From positions 51,533-69,778 of the forward strand of contig CAZAJQ010000003.1 of the NCBI GenBank assembly GCA_964485795.1: a stretch of 18,246 bases of DNA, written 5' to 3'. The translations under genes were made by a program, and so were the position numbers. Below the pieces are notes generated by a model. The model did not search any database and had not been told where the DNA came from. It worked only from the letters and a program-made list of their open reading frames with translations. Numbering within the stretch: the stretch's first letter is position 1; each line of letters starts with the position of its first letter. Of the stretch, positions 1 to 10,928 are shown piece by piece. The stretch is from an uncultured Gammaproteobacteria bacterium. Lineage in GTDB: Bacteria > Patescibacteriota > Patescibacteriia > VMEV01 > CAZAJQ01.

Positions 1-1512
1 TCCATTCGAGAGCTCGTGGAGCGGGTCAAAGTCGAAGTAACGGATCTTCACAAGGATGTTGTGGACGATATCACGTTTGCGTGTGAAGGCGGCAGTTGCA
101 AGGGAAGGATGAAGCGCATTCCTGAAGTGCTTGATTGCTGGTTTGAATCCGGAGCCATGCCCTACGCCCATCTGCATTATCCTTTTGAAAATAAAGATTT
201 TTTTGAAAAAAATTTTCCGGCCGAATTCATCGCCGAAGGACAAGATCAGACTCGCGGATGGTTTTATACCCTGCATGTATTGGCTGCGGCCTTGAGTTTC
301 GGCGATAAACCTTCAGTGCCCGTGAAGGAAAGCGTTCCGGCGTTTCGGAATGTCGTGGTTCACGGCATTGTTTTGGCGGAGGACGGGAAAAAAATGAGCA
401 AAAAGCTCAAAAATTATCCGGATCCCAATCTCATGCTGGAAAAATACGGAGCCGATGCCATACGTTATTATTTTGCGTCATCGCCGGTGATGCATGGAGA
501 AAATTTCAATTTTTCCGAAAAAGATCTTCGCGAAGTGTACAATAAGACCGTGAATACGCTGCAAAATGTTTTGGAATTTTTTATGGAGTTTCGGGATACC
601 GACGCGAATTTCGTTCAAATACCCAAGCCCAAAAACGTTCTCGATGTGTGGATACTTTCGCGGCTTTCCGGACTCATCGAAGAAGTCGGCGTGAAGCTCG
701 ACGAATATCGCATCGCCGAAGCGAGTCGTCCAATCGGAGAATTTTTGTCCGACCTTTCGACGTGGTACTTGCGTCGAAGTCGAGATCGATTCAAAAACGA
801 AGCGCATCGAAAAGAGGCAACGCAAGTTTTGGGCTTTACATTGCGTGAGCTTTCAGCGGTGATGGCGCCGCTCACTCCTTTTGTGGCCGAAGCGGTGTTT
901 CTGTCATTGCATCCCCAAAAAGATTCCGTGCACTTGGAAAGTTGGCCAAAGATTCATGAGTCCTTAAGAAACGAAGAGGTGAAGCGGCATATGGAGAACG
1001 TTCGCAAGCTCGTGGAATTGGGGCTTTCGCTTCGAGCCGAATACAAAATCAAGGTTCGTCAGCCGCTTTCCACGTTTTGGATCAAAGATCATAAGGAGCT
1101 TTTGGGCTATCGCGATATTCTCGCGGATGAACTCAATGTGAAGGAAGTGGTGTTTGTGGATACCTTTGAAGAGGGTTCAAAAGCTCCGTTCAAAGAAGAG
1201 AAAAATTTTTCCGTTGCGCTTGACATCGAGATTTCTGAAAGTTTGAGACAAGAAGGGGTGGTACGCGATATGGTACGACATATCAACAGCCTTCGGAAGA
1301 AAAAAGGGTTGCGACGAACGGATCGCACGACCGTCACGGTTCGCACGAAAAGCGAACGCATCGGAAAAATTGTTCAAGATTCGTTGTCGGAAATATTGAA
1401 AGAAACCGTGAGCGATGATGTGCTGATGCGTTCCGAATCGGGCGAGGGTGAAGATTCGCTTTGTGTGGAAGGCGAGTTTGTTTCCTTCGAATTGGCGATG
1501 AAACAAAGATGA
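1..1512 (+). CDS. ileS: Isoleucyl-tRNA synthetase, C-terminal ~500 aa; the 5' end lies outside the window
   Basis: Frame 1 is open from base 1, so the track's GTG at 16 is internal. Stop is TGA 1510-1512. The translation shows IleRS-type blocks VLDCWFESGAMPYA and FIAEGQDQTRGWFYTL, and the class-I KMSKS loop as K-M-S-K-K at 391-405, followed by a helical anticodon-binding-type region. Family recognition is from memory. Confidence 0.9.
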   Translation, partial: SIRELVERVKVEVTDLHKDVVDDITFACEGGSCKGRMKRIPEVLDCWFESGAMPYAHLHYPFENKDFFEKNFPAEFIAEGQDQTRGWFYTLHVLAAALSFGDKPSVPVKESVPAFRNVVVHGIVLAEDGKKMSKKLKNYPDPNLMLEKYGADAIRYYFASSPVMHGENFNFSEKDLREVYNKTVNTLQNVLEFFMEFRDTDANFVQIPKPKNVLDVWILSRLSGLIEEVGVKLDEYRIAEASRPIGEFLSDLSTWYLRRSRDRFKNEAHRKEATQVLGFTLRELSAVMAPLTPFVAEAVFLSLHPQKDSVHLESWPKIHESLRNEEVKRHMENVRKLVELGLSLRAEYKIKVRQPLSTFWIKDHKELLGYRDILADELNVKEVVFVDTFEEGSKAPFKEEKNFSVALDIEISESLRQEGVVRDMVRHINSLRKKKGLRRTDRTTVTVRTKSERIGKIVQDSLSEILKETVSDDVLMRSESGEGEDSLCVEGEFVSFELAMKQR

Positions 1513-2093
1513 GCTTTATGATCACCACACTTTCCGGAATCATTACCGAAAAATACGAGCATTTCGCCATTCTTGAAGTATCGGGTGTGGGGTACAAAGT
1601 TTTTTTCCCGTTCCGCGTTTTATCGAGTATTTCTCGAGACGATCAAGGGAAGTGGTACATCTATCATCATATTCGTGAAGATCGGCAAGAATTGTTTGGC
1701 TTTGCGAGTCAGGAAGATTTGCAAATGTTCGAATGGCTGCTTGACGTGAGCGGTATAGGTCCAAAATCAGCTTTGAATATCCTTGGTTCCGCGGATGCGC
1801 CGACGCTCTATGCATGCATCGTGCAAAAAGACGTGGATCGTTTATCAGCGATTCCCAAAATCGGAAAAAAAAATGCCGAGAAAATGATTCTTGAGTTGCA
1901 CAAAAAATTAAGCAAGACGAGTTTTTCTTCCGAAACGAACGAAAATCGAGACGAAACCTATCGCGAAACCGTGGAAGCACTCGTAGGACTCGGATATCGC
2001 CAATCGCAAGCCGAGCTCGCCGCTGCGAAGACTTCGAATGCGGAAATCGATATCAGTCAAAGGATCAAAGCCGCCCTCAAGCATCTGTCATGA
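1509..2093 (+). CDS. ruvA: Holliday junction branch-migration complex subunit RuvA (194 aa)
   Basis: ATG 1509 overlaps the ileS stop (ATGA). An in-frame ATG at 1518 gives MITTLSGIITEK, which matches the canonical RuvA N-terminus even better. Other RuvA marks: OB-domain block VSGVGYKVFFP, helix-hairpin-helix blocks LLDVSGIGPKSALNIL and IPKIGKKNAEKMILEL, and C-terminal domain III ALVGLGY. The track start at 1461 lies inside ileS and is rejected. Confidence 0.88.
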   Translation: MSFMITTLSGIITEKYEHFAILEVSGVGYKVFFPFRVLSSISRDDQGKWYIYHHIREDRQELFGFASQEDLQMFEWLLDVSGIGPKSALNILGSADAPTLYACIVQKDVDRLSAIPKIGKKNAEKMILELHKKLSKTSFSSETNENRDETYRETVEALVGLGYRQSQAELAAAKTSNAEIDISQRIKAALKHLS

Positions 2094-2154
2094 TTTTTGA
2101 CGATTCCTTCGAGAGGAGTCCCTTTATGAGGCATGATCAGAAGTTGTTATTGGG

Positions 2155-2184
2155 TTGACAATAGGAATTAGATTAGTTTACAAT
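2155..2184 (+). promoter_or_regulatory. Sigma70-type promoter: TTGACA (2155-2160), 18-nt spacer, TACAAT (2179-2184)
   Basis: A perfect -35 hexamer and a 5/6 -10 hexamer sit in the 101-nt ruvA-downstream gap. The -10 overlaps the track's ATG at 2183, so the real start must be ATG 2195, only ~11 nt after the -10. Confidence 0.6.
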
Positions 2185-2194
2185 GAGGTTATGT

Positions 2195-3250
2195 ATGACA
2201 AATAAGGAAAAAATTTTAAAATTTATAGAGCGCCAGGGGAAAGCCACATCGCGAGAAATCATTGAAACGATCGGAGTATCTCGCCAGTACGTCAATCTGG
2301 TTATTTCCGAACTTGTTGCAGAAGAGAAGGTTTTGAAAGTTGGGTCGACTCGATACGCTTTTTACGTTTCCAAAGCGTATGTGGCAGATCATCCTGAAGT
2401 CGTACCGAATGTTTTTAAAAAACAATACGTCAATAAATCGCTCGAGGAGCACCGCGTATTTCTCGAAATCGAGGACAAACTGCCGCAACTCAAAGCACTC
2501 CCTGAAAACGTACGGAGTATTTTCACGTTCGCTTTTTCAGAGATGTTAAATAACGCGATCGAGCATTCCGGATCGAAACTCATATCCGTAGAAGTGATCA
2601 TTCGGGATAAACTCCTTTCATTCATCGTGAACGATGCCGGTGTGGGAGTCTTCCGCAAGATTATGAAAAACAGAAATCTCAAATCGGAAATCGAAGCGAT
2701 TCAGGATTTGCTGAAAGGTAAGACAACGACCATGCCGAAATCTCATTCTGGCGAGGGGATTTTTTTTACCTCCAAAGCGGGGGATACATTCGCATTGGAT
2801 AGTTTTGGCTCTATGCTTTCCATCGATAATCTCTCGGGAGATATATCCGTGCGAGCGACTTCTGCCATCAAACGAGGTACGAGAGTTATTTTTAAGATGA
2901 GTGTGGATTCCGATCGTCACCTGAATGATGTTTTCAAAAAATACACCGACCTGAACAGTGACAGTGATTATGGCTTCGACAAGACCGAAATTCGGGTAAA
3001 ACTTTTTACATCGGGTGGTGTTCATATTTCCCGGTCCCAAGCTCGGAGGATATTGGAAGGACTCGATAAATTCAAAGTGATCATGTTTGATTACGAGAAT
3101 GTGCCGCTCGTCGGACAGGCGTTTGCGGATGAAATCTACCGCGTTTTCCAGGAACGCCATCCGGACATCCGTCTCGAAAACGAAAATATGAGCGAAGGAG
3201 TGCTATTTATGGTCGAGCGAGCCAAAAATGAAACCAGAAAGAAAAAATAA
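2195..3250 (+). CDS. wHTH + GHKL (anti-sigma-kinase-like) ATPase + STAS-like (DUF4325-type) fusion protein, 351 aa
   Basis: N-terminal winged-HTH pattern KILKFIERQGKATSREIIETIGVSRQYVNLVISELVAEEKV (about 2195-2368). GHKL N-box EMLNNAIEHSG, G1 box NDAGVGV and G2-like SGEGIFFTS lie at about 2510-2902. The C-terminal block SQARRILEGLDKFKVIMFDYENVPLVGQAFADEIYRVF (about 2984-3217) fits my memory of the STAS-like DUF4325 family. Stop is TAA 3248-3250. Confidence 0.65.
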   Translation: MTNKEKILKFIERQGKATSREIIETIGVSRQYVNLVISELVAEEKVLKVGSTRYAFYVSKAYVADHPEVVPNVFKKQYVNKSLEEHRVFLEIEDKLPQLKALPENVRSIFTFAFSEMLNNAIEHSGSKLISVEVIIRDKLLSFIVNDAGVGVFRKIMKNRNLKSEIEAIQDLLKGKTTTMPKSHSGEGIFFTSKAGDTFALDSFGSMLSIDNLSGDISVRATSAIKRGTRVIFKMSVDSDRHLNDVFKKYTDLNSDSDYGFDKTEIRVKLFTSGGVHISRSQARRILEGLDKFKVIMFDYENVPLVGQAFADEIYRVFQERHPDIRLENENMSEGVLFMVERAKNETRKKK

Positions 3251-3283
3251 CGTTCAAAAAAATTTTTGCAGGTTACTCATATC

Positions 3284-4435
3284 ATGAAATCGCATTTCCG
3301 TTATATTATTCCGATCGTTGCGGGGCTGATTCTTTTTTCGGCCGCTTTTTTTGTGAAAAAAAATCAGCTGCCGCCCATGACCATCGAAGTTTACGGCACC
3401 AGTACGGATCTCAATATGATGGCCGTCGAGGACGCCTTGTTTTCCGTCGAAGAAAAATTCGATGACAAAGTTCGCATTCGCATGCATTATCTTTCTCCGC
3501 TCGATGAAGCGGGGAATTTCACGAGTTTGCAATCCCAACGTCTCGATGGAAAAAACGTATCGGACGAGATGAAGAGTTTTGACATCATGGAAAATCAAAG
3601 ACGGTTGGTAATGCAAAAATTTTTCCCATCCCATTTTTGGCCGTATATTCGACTTCGCAACAGTACCGGCATTGAGGTGGATTGGCAGCCTCTCGCTCGA
3701 TACATAGGCCTTGATGCCGTTGGGTTTCAAAAAAAGTTTTCGGACTTTGGGATTGATATGTTGCAGATGGAATACTCGTCGTTTCAAGCTGAGCAGGCAC
3801 ATTTTGACTTTGTGCCGTCCGAGGAAGTGCTGCCGTTTGTGATCATGAATGGAAAACTGTATCGTGGGAAAACGGATCTCGCGAGCATGGCATCCGAGGT
3901 GGCAAAATATTTTTTGCGCAAAGGAAGATCCGAGCTTCCTTCCGATCATTTTTGGAAAGTGGGGAGTTTTTCCATTCCAAAGCCTTGGGAATACGCATAT
4001 CGGGGAGTTCATGAATGTTACTCCGATGATGCCTGTCAGGAGAAGCGCGGAAAAATCGGAGTCTGTGAAAATAAAAATCGTCTTTTCGCGTATTGCCGCT
4101 ATGACGAAGCGCCGGTTGTGAACATTGTGGTCATCAAAGACGATTTTGATCAAAATTCCGATCCGTATATCAAGCTTTTCAAAAAAGATTTTGAAAATAT
4201 TTCCGTGAATCATTTTTCATCCGACTCGGAAGAAGCCAAACGGTGGAAAAAAAATCCCCAGCTGGCGTTTGATCCGCTGTATATTTTCGACGCCGCAATA
4301 GAAAAGCAACCTCGGTTCCAAACCTATATGAAAAACAATCTCCTGATCCGCCTTCCCGACGGCCGTTATGCAATCGCCTCAACGCTTTTTCGGAAAGAAA
4401 CCGCTCCTTCTTCCGCTGATGCAGAAGTGAGATGA
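3284..4435 (+). CDS. N-terminally membrane-anchored, two-domain thioredoxin/DsbA-like protein with degenerate active sites (383 aa)
   Basis: ATG 3284 gives MKSHFRYIIPIVAGLILFSAAFFVKK, a signal anchor. TIEVYGTSTDLNMMAVEDAL sits where related exported thioredoxin-fold proteins carry ..EFY.MSQCPYG.QAE... LPFVIMNGKLYRG resembles the cis-Pro/..NG..y.G block. A four-Cys linker ECYSDDACQEKRGKIGVCENKNRLFAYC (4016-4096) precedes a second alpha/beta-like domain. The coding call is firm; the fold assignment is from memory and is tentative. Confidence 0.5.
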   Translation: MKSHFRYIIPIVAGLILFSAAFFVKKNQLPPMTIEVYGTSTDLNMMAVEDALFSVEEKFDDKVRIRMHYLSPLDEAGNFTSLQSQRLDGKNVSDEMKSFDIMENQRRLVMQKFFPSHFWPYIRLRNSTGIEVDWQPLARYIGLDAVGFQKKFSDFGIDMLQMEYSSFQAEQAHFDFVPSEEVLPFVIMNGKLYRGKTDLASMASEVAKYFLRKGRSELPSDHFWKVGSFSIPKPWEYAYRGVHECYSDDACQEKRGKIGVCENKNRLFAYCRYDEAPVVNIVVIKDDFDQNSDPYIKLFKKDFENISVNHFSSDSEEAKRWKKNPQLAFDPLYIFDAAIEKQPRFQTYMKNNLLIRLPDGRYAIASTLFRKETAPSSADAEVR

Positions 4436-4455
4436 ATGAAGAGCTGTGATATACT
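4427..4455 (+). promoter_or_regulatory. Candidate extended -10 promoter for the cassette: GTGAGA (4427-4432), 17 nt, TGaTATACT (4447-4455)
   Basis: TG at 4447-4448, one base, then TATACT at 4450-4455. The -35 is weak (4/6). It lies in the 125-nt gap before the first cassette gene. Pattern match only. Confidence 0.3.
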
Positions 4456-4560
4456 GAGAATCATGCTCAATGTTTCCGATGCGGTATAAAGCCCCAAACA
4501 CATCGTTTGAGTAACTTGTCGGTTATCTGCTTATTTTTTTCGATGTCCAACAAAACAAAC

Positions 4561-6324
4561 ATGAGTAAGAAGAAAATATTTCTGACGTTTGTCGCGACGG
4601 CAGGGGTTTTTTTGTTGCTTTCAAACATAAGCTTTGCCAAGCACAATAATATCGAAGGATTCGCATGGTCTAGTCTCTACGGATGGTTTTCGCATAATAA
4701 TAAAGACGTTTCATTACTTGATAAGGATTCTCATTATGGCGTGGAGCTTCTAGCAGACAATCGCTTGACGGGCTATGCGTGGAATCCCAACTTGGGGTGG
4801 ATTCAGTATGATCCCGTTGCACCCTACCCCGAGTCTCCGGATTTTTCCGCGACATTTGACCCGGCCACCCAAGATATCAACGGCTGGGCGAAGATCGTTT
4901 CTTTGGGAGACGACGGTTGGCTGAAGATGAATGATATCGGCTACGGCGTATCCATCGGTTGCAACGGGGATTTCAGCGGCTATGCATGGAACAATGCCAT
5001 AGGATGGATCGATTACAGCAAAAAGACTTTTACGTTTGGGCCAAAAAAAGAAAGCGATGGAAAACTCAAAGGCTATGCATGGACTTCCACGCATGGATTC
5101 ATTTCTCACAGCGATCAAGACACCGGCGGCGCGGCGGCGCCAAAAACGTATCAAGTGACTTTGAACGCCGGCAATAATTTTGAAGGATTCGCTTGGTCGC
5201 CTTATCTCGGATACATAGATTTCAATCCTACCGGCATTCATCCCGGCGCACCGTCAAACGGGGTTCGCTATGATTCGAGCACCAAAGAAGTTTCCGGATG
5301 GGCGAAGATTGTGGAATTCGGCGATGACGGATGGATTTCGTTTCGAGGCATATCGGGCGACGGAGATCCGTATGGAGTGACTTTGGATGACGAAGGATAT
5401 TTCAACGGCTATGCATGGAATCCGATCATCGGATGGCTGGACTATCGCAAAGGAAGGGGGGGCGTAAAGCGGGTGGGTCTTGAAACGCCGCTTTCCGCGC
5501 CGCAGCTGGAAAGTCCGGTGAATGAAGTGGATTTGGGCATGTCAAACCCTTCCACCTATTTTACGCCAACTCTTGATTTCACTTCGTTTCCGGTGATAGG
5601 TCCTGCTTGCGCCGGATCGGAAAAAGCGTATCAGGTTCAGGTTTCGCGGCTCAACGATTTTCCCGACCCGGGTTCTCCGGGGCAAGCGGTGCCAGACCCA
5701 CTCGATCCGCGCTGGTCAAGCATCATGGTCAATGACACGATTTACACGACCTCTTCATCGGCCTATACGATTTTGGCCGGTGTTTTTGATCTTTCGGATC
5801 CAAACGGCCTTGCGCCCGGAACGGATTATAATCAAACGTTTTATTGGCGCGTGAGGTATCAAAATTCCAGCGATGAGCTGACGGATTGGGGGACGATAGC
5901 GCGTATTTTTGCACCGGTGGTAACGCCAAACGCTTTTAAGATGCCCAAGCATGCGCCTCCTCTCGCGGATTTTACCTACGATCCTTTGGAGCCTCCGGCA
6001 TTCACAGAAACGAAATTCACGGATACTTCCATAAGCTATGGAGGCAGTACTTTGGTATACTGGAAATGGGATTTTGGCGATTCACATATCATTGAATGCG
6101 CGGATGCCGGCGGTATCACATGTACCTGCGAGAAAGCCGGAACTGCCGTCACTTGCCCGGCGTTTGAAAATCAGCATCCCGTCCATGTGTATACCGATGA
6201 CGGGCTCATGACGGTTTCGCTTTTGATCCGCGATTCCGACGGATACGAAGGCACCAAGGTATTGCCCGCTCCGCTCAACGTCACCTTACCTTTGCCGAAG
6301 TTTGAGCTTGGTGCGCCGAGATGA
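4561..6324 (+). CDS. Secreted multi-domain surface protein (587 aa): signal peptide, eight G-[YFW]-A-W repeats, Fn3-like domain, PKD domain
   Basis: ATG 4561 gives a textbook Sec signal peptide, MSKKKIFLTFVATAGVFLLLSNISFA|KHNN. ATG 4543 is a possible alternative; the track's TTG at 4507 is unlikely. The repeat region is 4651-5451. A Fn3-like block at about 5479-5916 runs from AYQVQVSRLNDF to FYWRVRYQNSSDELTDWG. The PKD block at 5962-6276 contains WKWDFGDS ... HVYTDDGLMTVSLLIRDSDG. Stop is TGA 6322-6324. Confidence 0.8.
   Translation: MSKKKIFLTFVATAGVFLLLSNISFAKHNNIEGFAWSSLYGWFSHNNKDVSLLDKDSHYGVELLADNRLTGYAWNPNLGWIQYDPVAPYPESPDFSATFDPATQDINGWAKIVSLGDDGWLKMNDIGYGVSIGCNGDFSGYAWNNAIGWIDYSKKTFTFGPKKESDGKLKGYAWTSTHGFISHSDQDTGGAAAPKTYQVTLNAGNNFEGFAWSPYLGYIDFNPTGIHPGAPSNGVRYDSSTKEVSGWAKIVEFGDDGWISFRGISGDGDPYGVTLDDEGYFNGYAWNPIIGWLDYRKGRGGVKRVGLETPLSAPQLESPVNEVDLGMSNPSTYFTPTLDFTSFPVIGPACAGSEKAYQVQVSRLNDFPDPGSPGQAVPDPLDPRWSSIMVNDTIYTTSSSAYTILAGVFDLSDPNGLAPGTDYNQTFYWRVRYQNSSDELTDWGTIARIFAPVVTPNAFKMPKHAPPLADFTYDPLEPPAFTETKFTDTSISYGGSTLVYWKWDFGDSHIIECADAGGITCTCEKAGTAVTCPAFENQHPVHVYTDDGLMTVSLLIRDSDGYEGTKVLPAPLNVTLPLPKFELGAPR
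4651..5451 (+). repeat. Protein-level tandem repeats: eight ~31-38-aa units built on G-[YFW]-A-W-x(3-4)-G-[WFY]-[ILF], arranged as two ~135-aa super-repeats
   Basis: Repeat cores are GFAWSSLYGWFSH (4657-4695), GYAWNPNLGWIQY (4771-4809), GWAKIVSLGDDGWLKM (4882-4929) and GYAWNNAIGWIDY (4978-5016). These are followed by GYAWTSTHGFISH (5071-5109), GFAWSPYLGYIDF (5185-5223), GWAKIVEFGDDGWISF (5296-5343) and GYAWNPIIGWLDY (5407-5445). Units 1-4 and 5-8 match one-to-one in order and subtype. Confidence 0.85.
5962..6276 (+). other. PKD-type Ig-like domain with a ~30-aa four-Cys insertion
   Basis: FTDTSISYGGSTLVYWKWDFGDS, then IIECADAGGITCTCEKAGTAVTCPAFENQ, then HPVHVYTDDGLMTVSLLIRDSDG. This is the canonical WDFGD ... 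HxY..G.Y.V.L.v.D pattern with an unusually long cysteine-bearing loop between the two halves. Confidence 0.7.
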
Positions 6325-6378
6325 GCGGAGACAACCCATCAGAGGGTGTTTCGCATCATTCTTTCACATTTATTCATT

Positions 6379-7104
6379 ATGAGGAGTAATTTTCAAAATT
6401 TTATTTTCATTTTTACCCTCGGGTTGATTTTCGGGTTGGCCGTTTTTTCATCCGGAGCTGAGCTTTTGGCGGCTTGGACTTCGCCGGGGCTCGGGTGCTC
6501 GGTGGGACAATGCTTGCCGACCGGCAAGGTGGATGCCGGAACCGCGTCGCAAACCGGAAACGATCGTTTGACGATCAACGGGAAATTGGAAATCGGCGGA
6601 GAAGCGTACGGGCAAAGCGATGTGGCGATCGTGGACGGCGACCTCGTGCTGTCCGATGATGGCGACGATCCCGGTGATGTCGTTTTCTACGATGAAGCGC
6701 GCAATCTTCTCGGGAAAATATACGCGTTTTCAAACGGGCTGCATCTGCAATCCTCGTCTGCACGTCCGGCGGATCTTTTCATCGCAAATGACGGCGGAAA
6801 TGTGGGCATCGGCACACAAACCCCGGAAAGCAATCTTCACGTCGTCGGAAATTTTCAACTCATCGACGGCCATCAAGCGCAAAACGCATTGATGGTTTCC
6901 GATGGCGTCGGCAATGCGCAATGGAAATCGTCTGCAACGGCGTATCAATGTCCAGCAATCGCCTCCACCGGAGGATGTGGGGCTTCCAATTGCGATGGCA
7001 ATCTTCATTTCGAAACGTCGACATGTCAATATCAGGTCTGGGTGTTCGGGTGCACACCGGTCACGGCCAATTGTTCGGCCGCAGGGTATTATTCGGCGCA
7101 ATAA
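6379..7104 (+). CDS. Exported fibre-like paralog P1 (241 aa), W-x-S-P-x-C family
   Basis: ATG 6379 gives MRSNFQNFIFIFTLGLIFGLAVFSSGAELLA|AWTSPGLGCSVGQC. The central stalk motif is GGNVGIGTQTPESNLHVVG (6796-6849), followed by LMVSDGVGNAQW. The C-terminal ~55 aa carry 7 Cys. Stop is TAA 7102-7104. The track's GTG at 6346 would add an odd hydrophobic extension and is rejected. Confidence 0.8.
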   Translation: MRSNFQNFIFIFTLGLIFGLAVFSSGAELLAAWTSPGLGCSVGQCLPTGKVDAGTASQTGNDRLTINGKLEIGGEAYGQSDVAIVDGDLVLSDDGDDPGDVVFYDEARNLLGKIYAFSNGLHLQSSSARPADLFIANDGGNVGIGTQTPESNLHVVGNFQLIDGHQAQNALMVSDGVGNAQWKSSATAYQCPAIASTGGCGASNCDGNLHFETSTCQYQVWVFGCTPVTANCSAAGYYSAQ

Positions 7105-7175
7105 AGGATTTTTTATTGTAATGGCATGGCGAGAAATTTTTTACGAGCTCTCAAAAATCGATTGAACCCTCGATT

Positions 7176-7919
7176 ATGAATATCACAAAAATCACCTCCG
7201 GAGCTATTTTCGCGGTTCTGGTATCGGCCACAGTTTTTGCGGTCCAAACCCATGTGTTTGCCCAATGGATCGAGCCGACATGCAGCGGTCCTTCGTGCGG
7301 CAAGGAAATATTGCGTTCCGATCTTGCGGAGCAGGAGAAAAGGGGCGATTTTCATCTGCTGGGCAATCTCGGAATTAAGACTGAAAATCCTGGCGATGCT
7401 TTTGAAATATTCGGAGGAGGCAATGTCAGCTTGGAAAGCATGAGCATTCCCGGAGCTTTGAAATTTTACAATTCCGTTTCCGATGAATTCGGAAAAATCG
7501 CAGTCACGGACAACGGTTTGTTTTTGGCCGCGGATACGCAAAGATCGGCGGATATTTTTTTGCAAAAAAACGGCTCGGTGGGCATCGGCTCAAATAAACC
7601 TCAAAGCACATTGCATGTGGCCGGATCCATGAAGGTGGTGGACGGAACGCAAGGAGCCAATAAAGTGTTTGTCTCCGACGCGGCCGGGAAGGGAGGGTGG
7701 AAAAATCTCCGTGCCGTCTACTATTGCGGTTATTATTCCGGCGGTCTTTGCGGCGGAGGTACGCAATGCAGCGGTCAATACGCGCTATGGCCCATTTCTT
7801 GCGCGTATCAGGAGTGCGCGGGAGCCGGAGGAGGAGATAAAAAGGGTCCGAGCTTTGGAACACCGGGAAACTGGCTGAACTATGATTGTCCGCAAATAGG
7901 AAATATTGTCGAGCCGTAG
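7176..7919 (+). CDS. Exported fibre-like paralog P2 (247 aa), W-x-E-P-x-C family
   Basis: N-terminus is MNITKITSGAIFAVLVSATVFAVQTHVFA|QWIEPTCSGPSCG. First stalk motif LGNLGIKTENPGDAFEIFG (7359-7415); central motif NGSVGIGSNKPQSTLHVAG (7569-7625); then VFVSDAAGKGGW. The C-terminal ~65 aa carry 7 Cys. Stop is TAG 7917-7919. Confidence 0.8.
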   Translation: MNITKITSGAIFAVLVSATVFAVQTHVFAQWIEPTCSGPSCGKEILRSDLAEQEKRGDFHLLGNLGIKTENPGDAFEIFGGGNVSLESMSIPGALKFYNSVSDEFGKIAVTDNGLFLAADTQRSADIFLQKNGSVGIGSNKPQSTLHVAGSMKVVDGTQGANKVFVSDAAGKGGWKNLRAVYYCGYYSGGLCGGGTQCSGQYALWPISCAYQECAGAGGGDKKGPSFGTPGNWLNYDCPQIGNIVEP

Positions 7920-7921
7920 CT

Positions 7922-8518
7922 ATGGACAGAAAAACGTTGCTCATGATGTTTGGTCTTGAAACGTCTTTGTTCGTCGCCTTTTTCAGCTATATCTGGATAT
8001 TCGCGCCCAAAAGCGGGGATATCACGAGTTTGACCCTCTATCAAAAGGGTTATGAAGATGGAAATTTGGCGGGAACGAAAATCTCGGGAGATGAAAACAG
8101 AAATTCAAATTTTCGCGCTGTCGGGACGGTTGTAAGCGCAGAAAATGGTGAAATGATTTTTGACATCGCACGGCAACCATCGAGCATTCAGGATTTCTCC
8201 GGCGAGCATGCACTTGTTTTGGATGCGAATGTGAAATTTTTTGATATTCTAGTAAAGACGCAAGCGCAGTATGAAAAAGAGACGCAGGCATACTATCAAG
8301 CAATGATTTTTGATAAAAAATTCAGGACGGCTCCGAACGCATTTGATATACTTTCGAGGGATTTGCTACCTGTTGTCGGAGATACCGTTTTGATCGTGTT
8401 TCGCAAAGAAGGCGGGGAAAATCGTATGCTGGAGGGGACGACTATCCCGCAAGCGTATGTTTCAAACGGAGATTTTTTGCAGCAAAGTTTTCAGATCATG
8501 AAAGAGAGTGATCGTTGA
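7922..8518 (+). CDS. N-terminally TM-anchored companion protein C1 (198 aa)
   Basis: ATG 7922 lies 2 nt after the P2 stop. MDRKTLLMMFGLETSLFVAFFSYIWIF is a single TM segment. The beta-rich ectodomain contains NRNSNFRAVGTVVSAENGEMIF ... VGDTVLIVF and aligns by eye with C2. The track start at 7886 overlaps P2 and is rejected. Confidence 0.7.
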   Translation: MDRKTLLMMFGLETSLFVAFFSYIWIFAPKSGDITSLTLYQKGYEDGNLAGTKISGDENRNSNFRAVGTVVSAENGEMIFDIARQPSSIQDFSGEHALVLDANVKFFDILVKTQAQYEKETQAYYQAMIFDKKFRTAPNAFDILSRDLLPVVGDTVLIVFRKEGGENRMLEGTTIPQAYVSNGDFLQQSFQIMKESDR

Positions 8519-8536
8519 TGATGGCCTTCGCCATCA
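8519..8536 (+). other. Perfect 7-bp stem / 4-nt loop hairpin directly after the C1 stop codon
   Basis: TGATGGC (8519-8525), loop CTTC, GCCATCA (8530-8536); all seven pairs are Watson-Crick. No U-tract follows (AAACGTTCC), so it is not a canonical intrinsic terminator. It sits at the boundary between the two three-gene modules. Confidence 0.45.
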
Positions 8537-8567
8537 AACGTTCCGCGTATCGGTTTATCGTAAACCA

Positions 8568-9233
8568 ATGAAAAAAATACTTTTTGATTTTGGAAAATAT
8601 ATCGGCATGTTCGCATTGGGAATCGGCATGGCCGGTATGGTGACTTTGTCGCAAAACGCTTTGGCCGATTGGCGATCGCCGTCTTGCAATCCGCCGGACT
8701 GCGGCGTGGATGCATCAAAGCTCATATCCGTGGAAGGCGGTGGAAACATCGTTGGTGATTTGAAAATACTTGGAAAACTCGGAGTCAAAACCAGTTCCCC
8801 GAAAGCGCGTCTTGATATCTCGCTCGGTGGAGATCTGATTCTGTCCGACGAAGCGCAAAATCCGGGAGACTTGCTTTTTGTCCAAGGAGGGCGTGAGCTG
8901 GCTCGCATTTACGGGGCGTCGGAGAGGATGGTTTTTTCCGCGTATGAAAATCCAAATCAGCTGGTGATTGATCATGCCACGGGAAGAGTCGGAGTGGGAG
9001 TGGCGGTTCCGCAGAGCACGTTGCACATTGCCGGAAGTCTGCGCATCAATAACGGCAGCGAGGGCGCCGGAAAGGTATTGGCCTCGGATGGAGAGGGAAA
9101 TGTTTTTTGGCGATCGACGGACATGCGCGTTTTGTTTTGCCCGACGTATAATCCTCCGTCGATCGTTTTCAGCTCGCTTGGGCTGATTTACTATACCGAA
9201 TGTTCTGAGCGTGGCCATTTGATTTCGCTTTAA
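8568..9233 (+). CDS. Exported fibre-like paralog P3 (221 aa), W-x-S-P-x-C family
   Basis: ATG 8568 gives MKKILFDFGKYIGMFALGIGMAGMVTLSQNALA|DWRSPSCNPPDCG. First stalk motif ILGKLGVKTSSPKARLDISLGG (8766-8831); GDLILSDEAQNPGDLLF aligns with P1 GDLVLSDDGDDPGDVVF; central motif TGRVGVGVAVPQSTLHIAG (8979-9035); then VLASDGEGNVFW. The tail is short, with 2 Cys. Stop is TAA 9231-9233. Confidence 0.8.
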   Translation: MKKILFDFGKYIGMFALGIGMAGMVTLSQNALADWRSPSCNPPDCGVDASKLISVEGGGNIVGDLKILGKLGVKTSSPKARLDISLGGDLILSDEAQNPGDLLFVQGGRELARIYGASERMVFSAYENPNQLVIDHATGRVGVGVAVPQSTLHIAGSLRINNGSEGAGKVLASDGEGNVFWRSTDMRVLFCPTYNPPSIVFSSLGLIYYTECSERGHLISL

Positions 9234-9292
9234 CGATTCGCTGCGGTATACTTGATAAAGAATTTTTTCAATCTCATTTTTCAAATTTGCGT

Positions 9293-10231
9293 ATGCATGT
9301 TTTTCAAAAAGTTTTTTTCGCATTATGGGGAGCGGTTATCAGCGTGGGCATTTTTTTTGTATCGCAAAATCTCATGGCGGCATGGAGTGAACCCGCATGC
9401 GATCCGGGACCAAACCCGGGCGCATGCAACGCTTCAGAGCCCATCAATGTAGGCACCGAAACGCAAAGCAAGGCTGGAAGTTTGGGTGTCATGGGAAATC
9501 TCGGCGTAGGCACCGGTACTCCGTCAGCCAAACTTTTCATCAGCGGAGACACGACCGCGGATTGGAAAAACGCTTCCATATGGATTCAAAATTCCGCGGC
9601 CGGTGGACGGATTTTCGCTATTGCCAGCAGACTGGACAATCCCGGCCAGCCCTATTTGGGCTTTACCGATGAAACCGCCGGGCAGGTGAGGATGTATCTG
9701 GATCAAAACGGCAACGTAGGCATCGGAGGTTATCCGACGAATAAGCTTTCGATCGAAGGAAGTCTTGATATGGCCGCGGGAACGACGATTTACAATCGGG
9801 GTCGCATGCATGTTTTCGGCGAAGAAATACTCTACCTTCTCAATCGAAGCGGAACCGTCGTGAGCAAAGCATGGGGAGGCAATGGAAATCTTTCGGTGGA
9901 AGGCGAAGAGTATGTGAGCGGAAAGTTTAATTTCAATCCTCATACGAATACGTGGGGGTCAAATTTTTATTTCCGCGGTTGGGCCGAGCCGGACAACTGC
10001 TGGCATGTGGGCGGTTATTATGAGGCTCCCTTTCAGTGTATCGGAAATTATATTGACCTCGGACAGCATAGTTTTTGCGCATTGGGGACGGTTTTCAGCG
10101 AACATCTGTACGATCAAGGCGGCGGATCCGCGATTTGCAATGTTTACTTTGACGGGCCCGCCAATACATGGCGTCTCTATGCCACCGAAGGATATGGAGG
10201 CGGAGTCGGTTGCGGGGTGAATTGTTTTTGA
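9293..10231 (+). CDS. Exported fibre-like paralog P4 (312 aa), W-x-E-P-x-C family, with an enlarged C-terminal domain
   Basis: ATG 9293 gives MHVFQKVFFALWGAVISVGIFFVSQNLMA|AWSEPACDPGPNPGAC. PINVGTETQSKAGSLGV follows, then first stalk motif MGNLGVGTGTPSAKLFISG (9491-9547) and central motif NGNVGIGGYPTNKLSIEG (9707-9763). A ~155-aa Gly/aromatic/Cys-rich domain replaces the SD..GN..W head. Stop is TGA 10229-10231. Confidence 0.8.
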   Translation: MHVFQKVFFALWGAVISVGIFFVSQNLMAAWSEPACDPGPNPGACNASEPINVGTETQSKAGSLGVMGNLGVGTGTPSAKLFISGDTTADWKNASIWIQNSAAGGRIFAIASRLDNPGQPYLGFTDETAGQVRMYLDQNGNVGIGGYPTNKLSIEGSLDMAAGTTIYNRGRMHVFGEEILYLLNRSGTVVSKAWGGNGNLSVEGEEYVSGKFNFNPHTNTWGSNFYFRGWAEPDNCWHVGGYYEAPFQCIGNYIDLGQHSFCALGTVFSEHLYDQGGGSAICNVYFDGPANTWRLYATEGYGGGVGCGVNCF

Positions 10232-10236
10232 AACCT

Positions 10237-10743
10237 ATGCCCAAATATTTCGAGCGATTTTTTTCTCATCTTGGAAATTTTTTTATCGGGATGGTGTTTG
10301 TTGTGCTGATATTTGTTTCGGGTATGGTCGTCAACCTTGTTTTGATCAATCCAAAACCCCAGCCGTATTCTTTTGAGATTCGAACCAATAGCGAGATCGT
10401 GAGCACCGCCGGGACGGTGCAGTCGGTGGGGGACAACTTTTTTATCCTTGGTTTCGAACCTCAGCTGCTTTTATCTCAACGTTTTCAGGAGAAAAAACTT
10501 CCGCAGAGTTTGAAGGTGTATTGGGATGAAAACACGGATTTTTTGGAAAATTTCTTATCGACTCAAATATCGATACCAAATCAAAATAACGGATCCGTTC
10601 TGGTGTCATCCCCGCAAAAATTGAGTCACAATGATTTGAAAGCGGGAATTCGTGTGATCGTGAATTTCGGAGAAAATATTTCTGAACAAACCGAAGCAAA
10701 AGCCAAGTCCATTTTTTTTGTAAATACCGGTTCAAAGCCTTGA
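10237..10743 (+). CDS. N-terminally TM-anchored companion protein C2 (168 aa)
   Basis: ATG 10237 lies 5 nt after the P4 stop. MPKYFERFFSHLGNFFIGMVFVVLIFVSGMVVNLVLI is the TM anchor. IRTNSEIVSTAGTVQSVGDNFFI ... AGIRVIVNF aligns by eye with C1. Stop is TGA 10741-10743. The track start at 10168 overlaps P4 and is rejected. Confidence 0.7.
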   Translation: MPKYFERFFSHLGNFFIGMVFVVLIFVSGMVVNLVLINPKPQPYSFEIRTNSEIVSTAGTVQSVGDNFFILGFEPQLLLSQRFQEKKLPQSLKVYWDENTDFLENFLSTQISIPNQNNGSVLVSSPQKLSHNDLKAGIRVIVNFGENISEQTEAKAKSIFFVNTGSKP

Positions 10744-10789
10744 AGAGGCCTTCTTGCCGAAAACGTGACAGCATTTTCCACAAACTCTG

Positions 10790-10818
10790 TTGACACCCTT
10801 TGTCAACGGTGGTATTAT
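10790..10818 (+). promoter_or_regulatory. Strong sigma70-type promoter for rpoBC: TTGACA (10790-10795), 17 nt, TGgTATTAT (10810-10818)
   Basis: A perfect -35, the optimal 17-nt spacer, an extended -10 TG at 10810-10811 and a 5/6 -10 hexamer at 10813-10818. It predicts a ~100-nt leader. A Shine-Dalgarno AAGGGAG at 10915-10921 lies 7 nt before ATG 10929. Confidence 0.65.
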
Positions 10819-10928
10819 GTGGAAAAATCCATGTCCGATTAATATTGGGCTAAGATGAGCCAAAATATCACATAAGTTGGTCCGTCATTAAATACTCGCT
10901 TCCAAAACAGTAAGAAGGGAGAATTTTT

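What the first reader, a model, noticed from the sequence alone, without database searches (positions are those of the whole stretch)
6379..10743. The cassette core looks like a tandem duplication of a three-gene module (fibre, fibre, TM companion) x 2
The gene order is P1-P2-C1 followed by P3-P4-C2. The first genes of each triplet, P1 and P3, align best with each other. Compare GDLVLSDDGDDPGDVVFYDEARNLLGKIYAFS with GDLILSDEAQNPGDLLFVQGGRELARIYGAS, followed by the stalk and SD..GN..W blocks. The third genes, C1 and C2, also align. Both have a TM anchor, then R.NS....GTV.S.....F.I, then L..G..V.IVF/VNF. In both triplets the second fibre gene is almost fused to its companion, with gaps of 2 nt and 5 nt. 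The other junctions are 49-71 nt. This suggests an ancient module duplication followed by divergence, with a fixed functional pairing of the second fibre gene and its companion.
Basis: seen in the sequence. Interest (0 to 1): 0.65.

Follow-up and report, generated by a model that had tools for sequence, protein, structure and literature searches.

The report
Paralogous surface fibres with membrane companions
An uncultured ultra-small (Patescibacteria/CPR) bacterium carries, just upstream of rpoB, four diverged copies of a short secreted fibre protein related to the prey-recognition fibres of Bdellovibrio; two copies are each followed within 2-5 nt by a small membrane-anchored partner gene, but the evidence argues against a duplicated three-gene block and fits piecemeal duplication better.

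Summary
The anatomy is as described. The genes run P1-P2-C1-P3-P4-C2 on the + strand with gaps of 71, 2, 49, 59 and 5 nt, and P1-P4 are true paralogs.

The duplication model does not hold:
- P1, P2 and P3 are about equidistant (31-33% identity) and form a clade (95% bootstrap) that excludes P4.
- P4 is closer to fibres of other CPR bacteria than to its neighbours.
- Only P1 and P2 share a tip.
- C1 and C2 do not align above chance, and neither has a detectable homologue among 1.84 billion representative proteins.

The pairing idea survives. In independent CPR contigs, small N-terminally anchored ORFs directly follow fibre genes of this type (baseline 4%). A profile of four such companions finds C2 (hhalign E 6e-5) but not C1. 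C1 shares only a two-part motif.

The fibres hit solved Bdellovibrio MAT fibres (Bd2133, E 4e-14). Each has a signal peptide, a CPR-specific WxEP leader, one beta-helix unit between two capping loops, and a Cys-rich tip.

Likely function, inferred: surface adhesin fibres with dedicated membrane anchor or assembly partners.

The parts
4507..6324 (+). U605: secreted protein with at least 6 'G[YF]AW..GW[IL]' repeats and a C-terminal PKD-like domain. It is the first gene of the probable operon. The likely true start is the ATG at 4561.
   Evidence: ORF and translation. Weak Pfam DUF7038 and PKD matches. Repeats. Homologous GWAW-repeat proteins sit beside leader-type fibre genes in L005, L006 and L095, and in none of 80 rpoB loci of relatives.
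6379..7104 (+). P1: fibre paralog of 241 aa. It has a signal peptide, a W-T-S-P leader with a Cys pair (C40, C45), capping-loop motifs at 6586-6630 (degenerate) and 6802-6849, and a 6-Cys tip of the same type as P2.
7176..7919 (+). P2: fibre paralog of 247 aa. Capping-loop motifs at 7368-7412 and 7578-7625; 6-Cys tip. Its stop codon lies 2 nt before the C1 start.
   Evidence: found as the identical protein on 4 Logan contigs
7922..8518 (+). C1: companion of 198 aa. N-terminal TM helix (about 7928-7999) and a beta-rich ectodomain; motif A at 8123-8167 (GTVVSAENGEMIFDI) and motif B at 8366-8401 (LPVVGDTVLIVF). An ORFan by sequence.
   Evidence: Gene callers on other contigs chose starts that give 190 or 198 aa.
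8568..9233 (+). P3: fibre paralog of 221 aa. Capping-loop motifs at 8778-8822 and 8988-9035; a short tip with 2 Cys that resembles none of the others.
9293..10231 (+). P4: fibre paralog of 312 aa and the most canonical member. Its leader keeps EPIN..TQSKAGSL. Capping-loop motifs at 9500-9547 and 9716-9760. It carries the widespread GRMH..LYLLN..SKAWGGNGNL.VEG module (9800-9901) and a large 6-Cys tip. Its stop codon lies 5 nt before the C2 start.
10237..10743 (+). C2: companion of 168 aa. N-terminal TM helix (about 10255-10359); motif A at 10411-10449 (GTVQSVGDNFFIL) and motif B at 10636-10668 (LKAGIRVIVNF). It is related to fibre companions of other CPR contigs.
4427..4455 (+). Weak sigma-70-like promoter match upstream of U605. 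It may be the start of a U605-to-C2 transcription unit.
   Evidence: This is a consensus match only, and the number of matches in the region is no higher than in shuffles.
10790..10818 (+). Strong promoter-like site (TTGACA-17-TATTAT with an extended TG) between C2 and rpoB. It marks the downstream boundary of the cassette.

Best explanation
The region is a cell-surface fibre locus of an ABY1-class Patescibacterium (CPR).

The fibres. P1-P4 are four paralogous proteins exported by the Sec pathway. Each has a signal peptide with an AxA-type cleavage site just before a conserved W-x-[ES]-P leader. Each then has a single trimeric beta-helix unit bounded by two capping-loop motifs (VGIG..P...L.V), of the kind seen in Bdellovibrio MAT fibres and in phage tail fibres or tailspikes. 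A small, mostly Cys-rich tip follows, and the tip differs between copies.

The companions. P2 and P4 are each followed at 2-5 nt by a single-pass, N-in/C-out membrane protein (C1, C2) with a beta-rich ectodomain. I infer that this partner anchors or assembles the fibre encoded just upstream, and that the tight spacing gives coupled, roughly equal expression.

The first gene. The upstream GWAW-repeat/PKD protein U605 is probably part of the same surface apparatus.

Origin. The locus did not arise by duplication of a three-gene module. The P4-C2 pair is the conserved, ancestral-looking fibre-companion unit. P1-P3 are a lineage-specific expansion with exchanged tips. C1 is either a very diverged copy of the companion or an independently recruited one.

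Shown: gene structure, paralogy, tree topology, homology to the MAT beta-helix, recurrence of companions and of GWAW proteins.
Inferred: trimerisation, surface display, adhesin role, anchor or chaperone role of C1 and C2.
For: Fibre identity:
- The profile of P1-P4 hits solved Bdellovibrio MAT fibres: 8OND Bd2133 at E 3.7e-14 in three stretches, and 8OJN, 8OML, 8ON4 and 8OL4.
- The MAT paper (PMC10769870) defines the capping-loop consensus V-G-G/N-pi-x-x-P-x-x-x-L and swappable tips. Each P protein has two such motifs about 72 aa apart.
- There are weak tail-fibre PHROG hits.

CPR-specific leader:
- The same signal peptide plus [AEQD]W..P..PPGGN..AP[IL]N.S..Q.K.G.L N-terminus occurs in P0007, P0112, P0113, P0077, P0045 and P0076, and in giant fibres of L064, L078 and L087-L091.
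- One of these proteins ends in Peptidase_S74.

Evolutionary history:
- Tree and distances, region-wise identities and tips.
- P4 is closer to foreign fibres than to its neighbours.
- All four P proteins share a Cys pair in the leader that foreign leaders lack.

Companions:
- A small ORF with a single N-terminal TM directly follows the fibre gene in the window (twice) and in L006, L091, L094 and L096. In L095 two such ORFs lie beside the fibre gene, and in L097 a TM-type ORF begins downstream before the contig ends.
- Such ORFs are 4.2% of genes in 80 related loci, so the crude binomial P is 6e-6.
- The hhalign profile of four non-window companions against C2 gives E 6.4e-5 over 95 columns and a score of 30.8, against 10.7 +/- 1.9 for shuffles.
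- The bipartite motif matches only C1, C2, L094c, L096c and L095c2 among 970 small ORFs, and 4 of 19400 shuffles.

GWAW protein: it is adjacent to fibres in the window, L005, L006 and L095.

Not phage, not defence: P4 has no relatives in viral contigs, there are no PADLOC hits, and the flanking genes are housekeeping.
Against: - No experiment or confident structure supports trimerisation, surface display or a fibre-companion contact. The AlphaFold models of C1 and C2 are unusable (pLDDT 36.5 and 49.3).
- C1 is not linked to C2 or to the companion profile by any statistical method. The bipartite motif was tuned after seeing the sequences.
- The sample of foreign fibre loci is small (about 8) and was not chosen at random.
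- L005, L064 and L078 have fibre genes without a companion.
- P1 and P3 have no companion of their own.
- The NJ tree rests on 173 trimmed columns of very diverged, partly repetitive proteins. Mosaic similarity suggests recombination, which blurs any tree.
- The ~130-aa N-terminal domain that defines Bdellovibrio MAT proteins cannot fit in the roughly 35 aa between the signal peptide and the first capping loop.
Confidence: 0.55

Rival explanations
1. One reading: an ancestral three-gene module (fibre A, fibre B, companion) duplicated in tandem. P1/P3, P2/P4 and C1/C2 would then be the three pairs of duplicates.
For: - The gene order is periodic, and both companions are almost fused to the second fibre gene.
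- P1 and P3 are the most similar pair in the helix-body block (15/40).
- C1 and C2 share a TM anchor and a collinear two-part motif with near-equal spacing, 66 and 62 aa.
Against: - The (P1,P2,P3) clade has 95% bootstrap, P2+P3 has 88%, and P4 groups with foreign P0112 at 100%.
- P2-P4 is not a best pair in BLAST or over the mature alignment.
- Tips match only between P1 and P2.
- The P1/P3 block is the family consensus, also found in other organisms.
- C1-C2 similarity is at chance.
- There is no DNA repeat between the halves.
- The order alone has p about 0.07.
Confidence: 0.08
2. Duplication of a pair rather than a triplet. An ancestral fibre-companion pair duplicated once, giving proto-P2-C1 and P4-C2. 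The fibre of the upstream pair then duplicated twice more, and one copy (P3) ended up downstream of C1. C1 and C2 would be true but extremely diverged paralogs.
For: - It is compatible with the rooted topology (P4,(P1,(P2,P3))).
- It fits the Cys pair in the leader shared by all four fibres.
- Fibre-companion pairs are the recurrent unit in L094, L096, L091 and L006.
- L094 carries two paralogous companions on one contig (E 4.6e-48).
- C1 and C2 share the bipartite motif.
Against: - C1 is not statistically linked to C2, to the companion profile or to the L094 pair.
- It needs an extra rearrangement, or loss of a companion, to place P3 after C1.
Confidence: 0.3
3. Prophage or tailocin remnant: the P genes are phage tail fibres, and C1 and C2 are tail-fibre assembly chaperones or holin-like genes.
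For: - Weak PHROG tail-fibre hits (phrog_9942 E 7e-6).
- Phage fibre genes are often followed by a small chaperone gene (general knowledge).
- The MAT and S74 beta-helix is shared with phage T5 and K1F fibres (PMC10769870).
Against: - All four P proteins and U605 have N-terminal signal peptides. Phage fibres lack these.
- No capsid, tail, baseplate, integrase or lysis gene lies in the 18 kb; the flanks are IleRS, RuvA, rpoB and rpoC.
- P4 has no relative in IMG/VR.
- The leader occurs in chromosomal contexts in many CPR genomes.
Confidence: 0.04
4. C1 and C2 are unrelated small membrane ORFans, and their position after fibre genes has no functional meaning. Such proteins are common in CPR genomes.
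For: - Neither has any homologue at E<=0.001 among 1.84 billion representatives.
- C1 matches nothing by profile.
- The companions L091c and L006c share no motif with the rest.
Against: - The adjacency is enriched about 15-fold over the 4.2% baseline.
- Gaps are 2-5 nt in the window and 13-19 nt in L091, L094 and L096.
- C2 matches the companion profile far above shuffles.
- The motif has zero false positives among 965 other small ORFs.
Confidence: 0.15

Closest known systems
Bdellovibrio bacteriovorus MAT (mosaic adhesive trimer) fibre proteins, e.g. Bd2133, Bd3182, Bd1334 (PDB 8OND, 8OJN, 8OML, 8ON4, 8OL4; Caulton et al. 2024, PMC10769870)
   Same: - Both have a signal peptide and a conserved N-terminal part.
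- Both have a beta-helix stalk with capping loops. The sequence match is significant (E 3.7e-14) and the published capping motif is present twice per protein.
- The C-terminal tips are variable and exchangeable.
- Several paralogs occur per genome.
- S74 and non-S74 subtypes also exist among CPR leader-type fibres.
- The bacterium lives on other bacteria. For CPR this is general knowledge about cultivated members, not something shown for this organism.
   Different: - These proteins are much shorter: about 190-280 mature residues against roughly 600-1150. They have one beta-helix unit instead of several plus long stalks.
- The N-terminal part is a leader of about 35 aa (W-x-E-P...), not a ~130-aa beta-rich domain.
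- The tips are small and Cys-rich.
- The genes are clustered in tandem with dedicated TM companions and a GWAW-repeat protein. The passages of the MAT paper that were read (keyword extracts) mention no such partner genes and state that the surface element that would bind the N-terminal domain is unidentified.
Phage tail fibres or tailspikes with an S74 intramolecular chaperone (T5 pb1, K1F endosialidase), and phage fibres that need a separately encoded assembly chaperone (Tfa, gp38 or gp57-type)
   Same: - The trimeric beta-helix and capping-loop architecture is homologous (via MAT; PHROG hits).
- The gene arrangement 'fibre followed immediately by a small helper gene' is analogous.
   Different: - P1-P4 have Sec signal peptides and sit in a chromosomal, non-phage context.
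- P1-P4 have no S74 domain.
- C1 and C2 are membrane-anchored and show no similarity to any PHROG or Pfam chaperone family.
DUF5666 (PF18914) small beta-barrel domains of secreted or lipoprotein-type bacterial proteins
   Same: The companion ectodomains show the same kind of pattern: G-x-V-x-x-V...F-x-I, then ...V-x-V..T.., then L-x-x-G-D-x-V-x-V. One foreign companion (L095c2) gives a sub-threshold DUF5666 hit (E 0.0056, 17.4 bits).
   Different: C1, C2, L094c and L096c give no DUF5666 hit even at E<=10. The resemblance is a lead from pattern inspection, not a demonstrated relationship.

Membership tests
MAT fibre family (Bdellovibrio; PMC10769870) | N-terminal signal peptide | tested here: met
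   A hydrophobic N-terminal segment is followed by small-x-small sites (VFA|QW, ALA|DW, LMA|AW, SGA|E) in P1-P4. This rests on inspection and Kyte-Doolittle windows only; no dedicated predictor was available. P3's segment is weaker (maximum 1.40).
MAT fibre family (Bdellovibrio; PMC10769870) | Conserved beta-rich domain of about 130 aa immediately after the signal peptide | tested here: not met
   Only about 35-40 residues separate the predicted cleavage site from the first capping-loop motif. They form a different, CPR-wide W-x-E-P leader. Sequence comparison with the Bdellovibrio N-domain itself was not possible, because it is not in the PDB chains.
MAT fibre family (Bdellovibrio; PMC10769870) | Trimeric beta-helix stalk with capping-loop motif V-G-G/N-pi-x-x-P-x-x-x-L | tested here: met
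   This is met at the sequence level: profile against Bd2133 gives E 3.7e-14, and against 8OJN 1.8e-8. There are two motifs per protein. Trimerisation itself is not testable with these tools.
MAT fibre family (Bdellovibrio; PMC10769870) | Variable C-terminal tip, either S74 chaperone/protease or a non-S74 adhesive domain | tested here: met
   P1-P4 have no S74. There are at least three different tips: P1 resembles P2 (z 5.2), and P3 and P4 are unique. The fold and binding function of the tips are unknown.
MAT fibre family (Bdellovibrio; PMC10769870) | Display on the cell surface and a role in recognising another bacterium | not testable with these tools
   This needs localisation and genetics in an uncultured organism.
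Phage tail fibre plus tail-fibre assembly chaperone | Location within a phage, prophage or tailocin structural module | tested here: not met
   There are no phage genes in the 18 kb; the flanks are IleRS, RuvA, rpoB and rpoC. IMG/VR holds no relative of P4.
Phage tail fibre plus tail-fibre assembly chaperone | The downstream small gene belongs to a known chaperone family (Tfa, gp38, DUF4376 and the like) | tested here: not met
   C1 and C2 give no Pfam, NCBIfam, PHROG or PADLOC hit.
CPR fibre-companion family (defined here from L094c, L096c, L095c1, L095c2) | Single N-terminal TM helix, a 100-200 aa protein, encoded directly beside a leader-type fibre gene | tested here: met
   Both C1 and C2 meet this. 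The baseline for such ORFs is 4.2% of genes.
CPR fibre-companion family (defined here from L094c, L096c, L095c1, L095c2) | Profile-level sequence similarity of the ectodomain | tested here: inconclusive
   C2 meets it: hhalign E 6.4e-5 and score 30.8, against 10.7 +/- 1.9 for shuffles. C1 does not: E 0.25-0.66, within the range of shuffles. C1 matches only the bipartite motif, which was tuned post hoc.
DUF5666 (PF18914) | Pfam HMM match at or above the gathering score | tested here: not met
   C1 and C2 give no hit at E<=10. L095c2 scores 17.4 bits against a cut-off of 27.

The most novel reading that the evidence does not exclude
Patescibacteria (CPR) episymbionts may carry a dedicated, modular host-recognition apparatus. 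Its parts would be miniature MAT-like trimeric fibres with a phylum-specific W-x-E-P docking leader and rapidly exchanged Cys-rich or S74 tips, each served by a fast-evolving membrane-anchored beta-barrel companion that anchors or assembles it, together with a GWAW-repeat surface protein. This would be a counterpart of the Bdellovibrio MAT prey-recognition system, but with identifiable partner genes. The four-fibre, two-companion cluster in this window would be one lineage's expanded repertoire.
Probability: 0.3. Interest if true: 0.75.

Novelty: new variant of a known kind. Interest (0 to 1): 0.5.

Why it matters
Very little is known about how CPR/Patescibacteria recognise and attach to host cells beyond the type IV pili of Saccharibacteria. 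For Bdellovibrio MAT fibres, the cell-surface element that holds the conserved N-terminal domain is still unidentified (PMC10769870).

This locus, and the related contigs found here, suggest that CPR bacteria carry short homologues of those fibres. They come with a distinct conserved leader and with recurrent neighbouring genes: TM-anchored companions and GWAW-repeat proteins. Those neighbours are concrete candidates for the missing anchor or assembly partners, which makes the question testable by co-folding, pull-downs and heterologous expression.

The tidy (P,P,C) x 2 pattern is not a duplicated module.

Tried and rejected
- Direct homologue searches for C1, P2 and a C1+C2 concatenate against 1.84e9 representatives returned only self hits, so no profiles of C1 or C2 orthologues could be built.
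- AlphaFold2 single-sequence models of C1 and C2 were too poor (pLDDT 36.5 and 49.3) for any fold search. I did not run fold search on them.
- Synteny approach. The rpoB N-terminus retrieved 80 ABY1-class genomes at 65-76% identity. The ruvA-rpoB interval is syntenic in 22 of them, but it holds a FemX-like protein, a nucleotidyltransferase and a Mur ligase, not the cassette. C1, C2, U605, U389 and the HTH-kinase-like gene are absent from all 80. Modules per genome in close relatives therefore could not be counted.
- A metagenome scan with a leader alignment gave only 7 loci.
- jackhmmer on about 3800 local ORFs did not connect the companions.
- A profile of the two L094 companion paralogs did not reach C1 or C2.
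- The companion profile has no PDB relative.
- I considered and rejected a prophage origin, a defence system, RNA elements and recent duplication at the DNA level.
- Shine-Dalgarno analysis was uninformative, because almost no gene in the window has such a site.
- The contexts of the non-CPR relatives P0023 and P0009 were uninformative.

Full report
**Anatomy**

The window comes from a Patescibacteria (CPR) genome. It holds IleRS (3' part), RuvA, an HTH/HATPase/DUF4325 protein, an unknown 389-aa membrane protein, the cassette, and then rpoB and rpoC, all on the + strand. The nearest genomes by the rpoB N-terminus (65-76% identity) are Komeili-, Kerfeld-, Falkow-, Kuenen- and Uhrbacteria; assigning these to class ABY1 is my own knowledge and was not looked up.

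The cassette genes are:

| Gene | Coordinates | Length (aa) |
|---|---|---|
| U605 | 4507/4561-6324 | 605 |
| P1 | 6379-7104 | 241 |
| P2 | 7176-7919 | 247 |
| C1 | 7922-8518 | 198 |
| P3 | 8568-9233 | 221 |
| P4 | 9293-10231 | 312 |
| C2 | 10237-10743 | 168 |

The same genes were called on four short contigs from one sequencing project, with identical P2. A strong promoter-like site (TTGACA-17-TATTAT) lies between C2 and rpoB, and a weak one lies before U605. No terminator-like site stands out, and none lies in an intergenic gap of the cassette. The seven genes may therefore be one transcription unit, which is an inference.

**Are P1-P4 paralogs, and who is closest to whom?**

All four are clearly homologous. 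BLASTP gives 34-91 bits, and Smith-Waterman z-scores against shuffles are 9-34. The pattern is not the one a duplicated (P,P,C) module predicts:

- The best pair is P1-P2 (91 bits), then P2-P3 (85), then P1-P3 (79). P4 is the outlier (34-54).
- Over the mature proteins the identities are 32%, 33% and 31% among P1-P3, and 23-28% to P4.
- A neighbour-joining tree with four leader-type fibres from other organisms as outgroups gives (P1,(P2,P3)) with 95% and 88% bootstrap. It joins P4 to the foreign fibre P0112 at 100%.
- In a phmmer search of all fetched loci, P4 scores E 1e-23 against the foreign fibres P0007 and P0112, but only 4e-10 to 8e-5 against its own neighbours.
- P4 alone carries the widespread module GRMH.x.G.E.LYLLN..G..VSKAWGGNGNL.VEG, which about 18 hits from diverse bacteria share.

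Region by region the similarity is mosaic. P2-P3 and P3-P4 are best in the first capping loop. P1-P2 is best in the second capping loop, the collar and the tip.

The quoted block (GDLvLSD..PGD..F....G.I......AD.fI...GNVGIG) is the consensus beta-helix unit of the family. It occurs twice in P0009 (a contig labelled Thiothrix), and also in P0015 and P0023. Its sharing by P1 and P3 is therefore retention of an ancestral state, with P2 diverged. It is not evidence that P1 and P3 are sisters.

The C-terminal tips match only between the adjacent genes P1 and P2 (six Cys in register, z 5.2). All other tip pairs are at chance.

All four proteins share a Cys pair in the leader (W.[ES]P.C...C) where foreign leaders have PPGGN. 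This argues that all four descend from one gene within this lineage, or were homogenised there.

At the DNA level nothing repeats between the two halves except the 48-nt segment encoding the capping loop, at 60-71% identity.

**Are C1 and C2 homologous?**

Directly, this cannot be shown. No BLAST hit links them. Local and global alignments with two matrices and several gap costs give z-scores of 0.1-1.1, and single-sequence hhalign gives E 0.8.

Neither has any homologue. C1 was searched against 5.8e9 proteins. A C1+C2 concatenate was searched exhaustively against 1.84e9 representatives, and each part found only itself.

Single-sequence AlphaFold models are of low confidence (pLDDT 36.5 and 49.3). 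They show only an N-terminal helix followed by a mainly beta ectodomain.

Context gave more. I looked up every hit of the P profile that carries the CPR leader. A small ORF with a single N-terminal TM segment sits directly after the fibre gene in:

- L006 (102 aa)
- L091 (186 aa, 13-nt gap)
- L094 (205 aa, 19-nt gap)
- L096 (149 aa, 14-nt gap)

In L095 two such ORFs lie beside the fibre gene, and in L097 a TM-type ORF begins just downstream before the contig ends.

Such ORFs are 4.2% of genes in the 80 related rpoB loci. Five of eight fibre-array ends being followed by one gives a crude binomial P of about 6e-6. The test is post hoc and the sample is small.

A profile of four non-window companions aligns to C2 over 95 columns, from the first motif to the second. 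hhalign gives E 6.4e-5 and a score of 30.8, against 10.7 +/- 1.9 (maximum 15.8) for 100 shuffles. The same profile, with or without C2 added, does not detect C1. A profile of the two paralogous companions of L094 does not detect it either.

I wrote the signature as a pattern. Among 970 small ORFs from all fetched loci it matches only C1, C2, L094c, L096c and L095c2, and it matches 4 of 19400 shuffled ORFs. The pattern was tuned after seeing the sequences, and loosened once to admit C1, so it is suggestive only.

My estimate is that C2 is a member of a real, very fast-evolving family of fibre companions. C1 probably is too (about 55%), but that is unproven.

**What the fibres are**

Pfam and NCBIfam find nothing, and PHROGs gives weak tail-fibre hits. 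The P1-P4 profile retrieves 162 proteins. Most are 300-540 aa proteins of the tail-fibre or endosialidase-like kind that share the GNVGIGT..P..KL.V.G motif. Their heads vary: S74 chaperone, H-type lectin, collar, C1q, YadA-like.

Against solved structures the profile hits the Bdellovibrio bacteriovorus MAT fibres: 8OND (Bd2133) at E 3.7e-14 in three stretches, and 8OJN, 8OML, 8ON4 and 8OL4. The MAT paper describes the following (PMC10769870):

- a signal peptide;
- an invariant N-terminal domain of about 130 aa, presumed to bind an unidentified surface element;
- intertwined trimeric beta-helices delimited by capping loops with the consensus V-G-G/N-pi-x-x-P-x-x-x-L;
- exchangeable tips, in S74 and non-S74 subfamilies;
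- display on the predator's surface.

Each P protein has two capping-loop motifs about 72 aa apart, which means one beta-helix unit, followed by the collar SD..G...W and a small tip. They are therefore minimal relatives of the MAT stalk.

They fail one defining MAT feature. Instead of the ~130-aa N-domain they have a leader of about 35 aa: a signal peptide with cleavage predicted just before (x)W-x-[ES]-P. The canonical form of the leader, [AE]W[ST].P..PPGGN..AP[IL]N.S..Q.K.G.L, recurs in CPR fibres from 266 aa up to 1617 aa. One of these (L091) ends in Peptidase_S74 (E 2e-16), so both MAT-like subtypes exist behind this leader.

In L064, L078 and L062, giant fibre genes sit directly upstream of rpoB, tandemly in L064 and L078. 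L087 and L088 show leader-type fibre genes directly after the Mur ligase gene, the gene that precedes rpoB in relatives. This is the same position as the cassette here, so the spot may be a long-standing fibre locus with very fluid content.

**The first gene of the cassette**

U605 has at least six G[YF]AW..GW[IL] repeats and a PKD-like end. Homologous GWAW-repeat proteins lie next to the fibre gene in L005, L006 and L095, where the gap is 3 nt. None lies in the 80 rpoB loci. This supports a functional link between the two kinds of protein.

**Mechanism (inferred)**

- The fibres are exported by Sec and cleaved before the W-x-E-P leader. They fold into short trimeric beta-helices whose tips, stabilised by disulfides, bind ligands on another cell or surface.
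- The leader docks the fibre to a cell-envelope partner.
- The companions are type II membrane proteins with a small beta-rich ectodomain, and they are translated from a start 2-5 nt after the fibre's stop codon. They are the obvious candidates for that dock, or for an extracytoplasmic assembly factor. The phage arrangement of a fibre gene followed by a small chaperone gene is an analogy only.
- P1 and P3 lack a companion of their own. They may share C1 or C2, or may need none.

**Origin**

The data fit a conserved P4-C2-like pair plus a lineage-specific expansion (P1-P3) with tip exchange. Whether C1 arose by duplication of the pair (rival 2) or was recruited separately is open.

**Rejected alternatives**

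- A prophage remnant is unlikely. The proteins have signal peptides, the context is housekeeping, and IMG/VR holds no relative of P4.
- No defence-system model matches.
- No RNA family or tRNA was found in the window.

**Verdict**

- The underlying object is a new variant of a known kind. These are MAT or tail-fibre-like adhesin fibres in a CPR bacterium, with a distinct leader and recurrent partner genes. I found no literature on this in the library searched.

Noticed in passing
window 2094-10928 (ruvA to rpoB interval): In 22 of 80 related ABY1-class genomes ruvA lies upstream of rpoB. The interval there holds a FemX-like gene, a nucleotidyltransferase and a Mur-ligase gene. In this window all three are missing from the interval. 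They are replaced by an HTH/HATPase/DUF4325 gene, a 389-aa ORFan, U605 and the fibre cassette.
   Followed up: partly
L078 271-9654; L064 about 1138-9670; L062 1-3210; L088 7920-12639; L089 1808-6514: Some relatives carry one or two giant (1065-1617 aa) fibre genes with the same W..P..PPGGN leader, in the equivalent position to the cassette. In L078, L064 and L062 they lie directly upstream of rpoB; in L088 the fibre genes follow the Mur ligase gene. No companion gene follows them in L078 or L064.
   Followed up: partly
window 2183-3250 (+): A 355-aa protein with a winged-helix HTH, a histidine-kinase-like ATPase and a STAS-like DUF4325 domain. It has no counterpart in the 80 related loci and only a negligible DrmA-like PADLOC hit (E 0.005).
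   Followed up: partly
window 3266-4435 (+): A 389-aa protein with an N-terminal TM segment and several Cys. It matches no family and has no relative in the fetched loci. It sits between the regulator-like gene and U605, and could belong to the surface-protein cluster.
   Followed up: no
L094 2-517 and 2927-3544: Two paralogous companion-type proteins (E 4.6e-48) lie on one contig, one on each side of the fibre gene P0076. An AbiEii gene lies between the first one and the fibre. This hints that fibre-companion units are also multiplied in another CPR lineage.
   Followed up: partly
L095 652-8103: A whole cluster of envelope proteins surrounds a leader-type fibre: a 625-aa secreted protein, a divergent TM companion (weak DUF5666), the fibre, a GWAW-repeat/CARDB protein 3 nt downstream, a second TM companion, and a DUF7282-like protein with internal repeats.
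   Followed up: partly
window, all gene starts: Almost no gene in the window has a Shine-Dalgarno-like sequence upstream; only rpoB has GGAG at -7. C1 and C2 have clearly lower G+C (0.41-0.43) than the fibre genes (0.51-0.53).
   Followed up: partly
window 6496-6513, 7281-7298, 8685-8702, 9398-9427 (leader Cys pairs): All four fibres have two Cys, 4-8 residues apart, right after W-x-[ES]-P. Every foreign leader examined has PPGGN or a similar Cys-free stretch at that place. This is a lineage-specific change in the presumed docking segment.
   Followed up: partly
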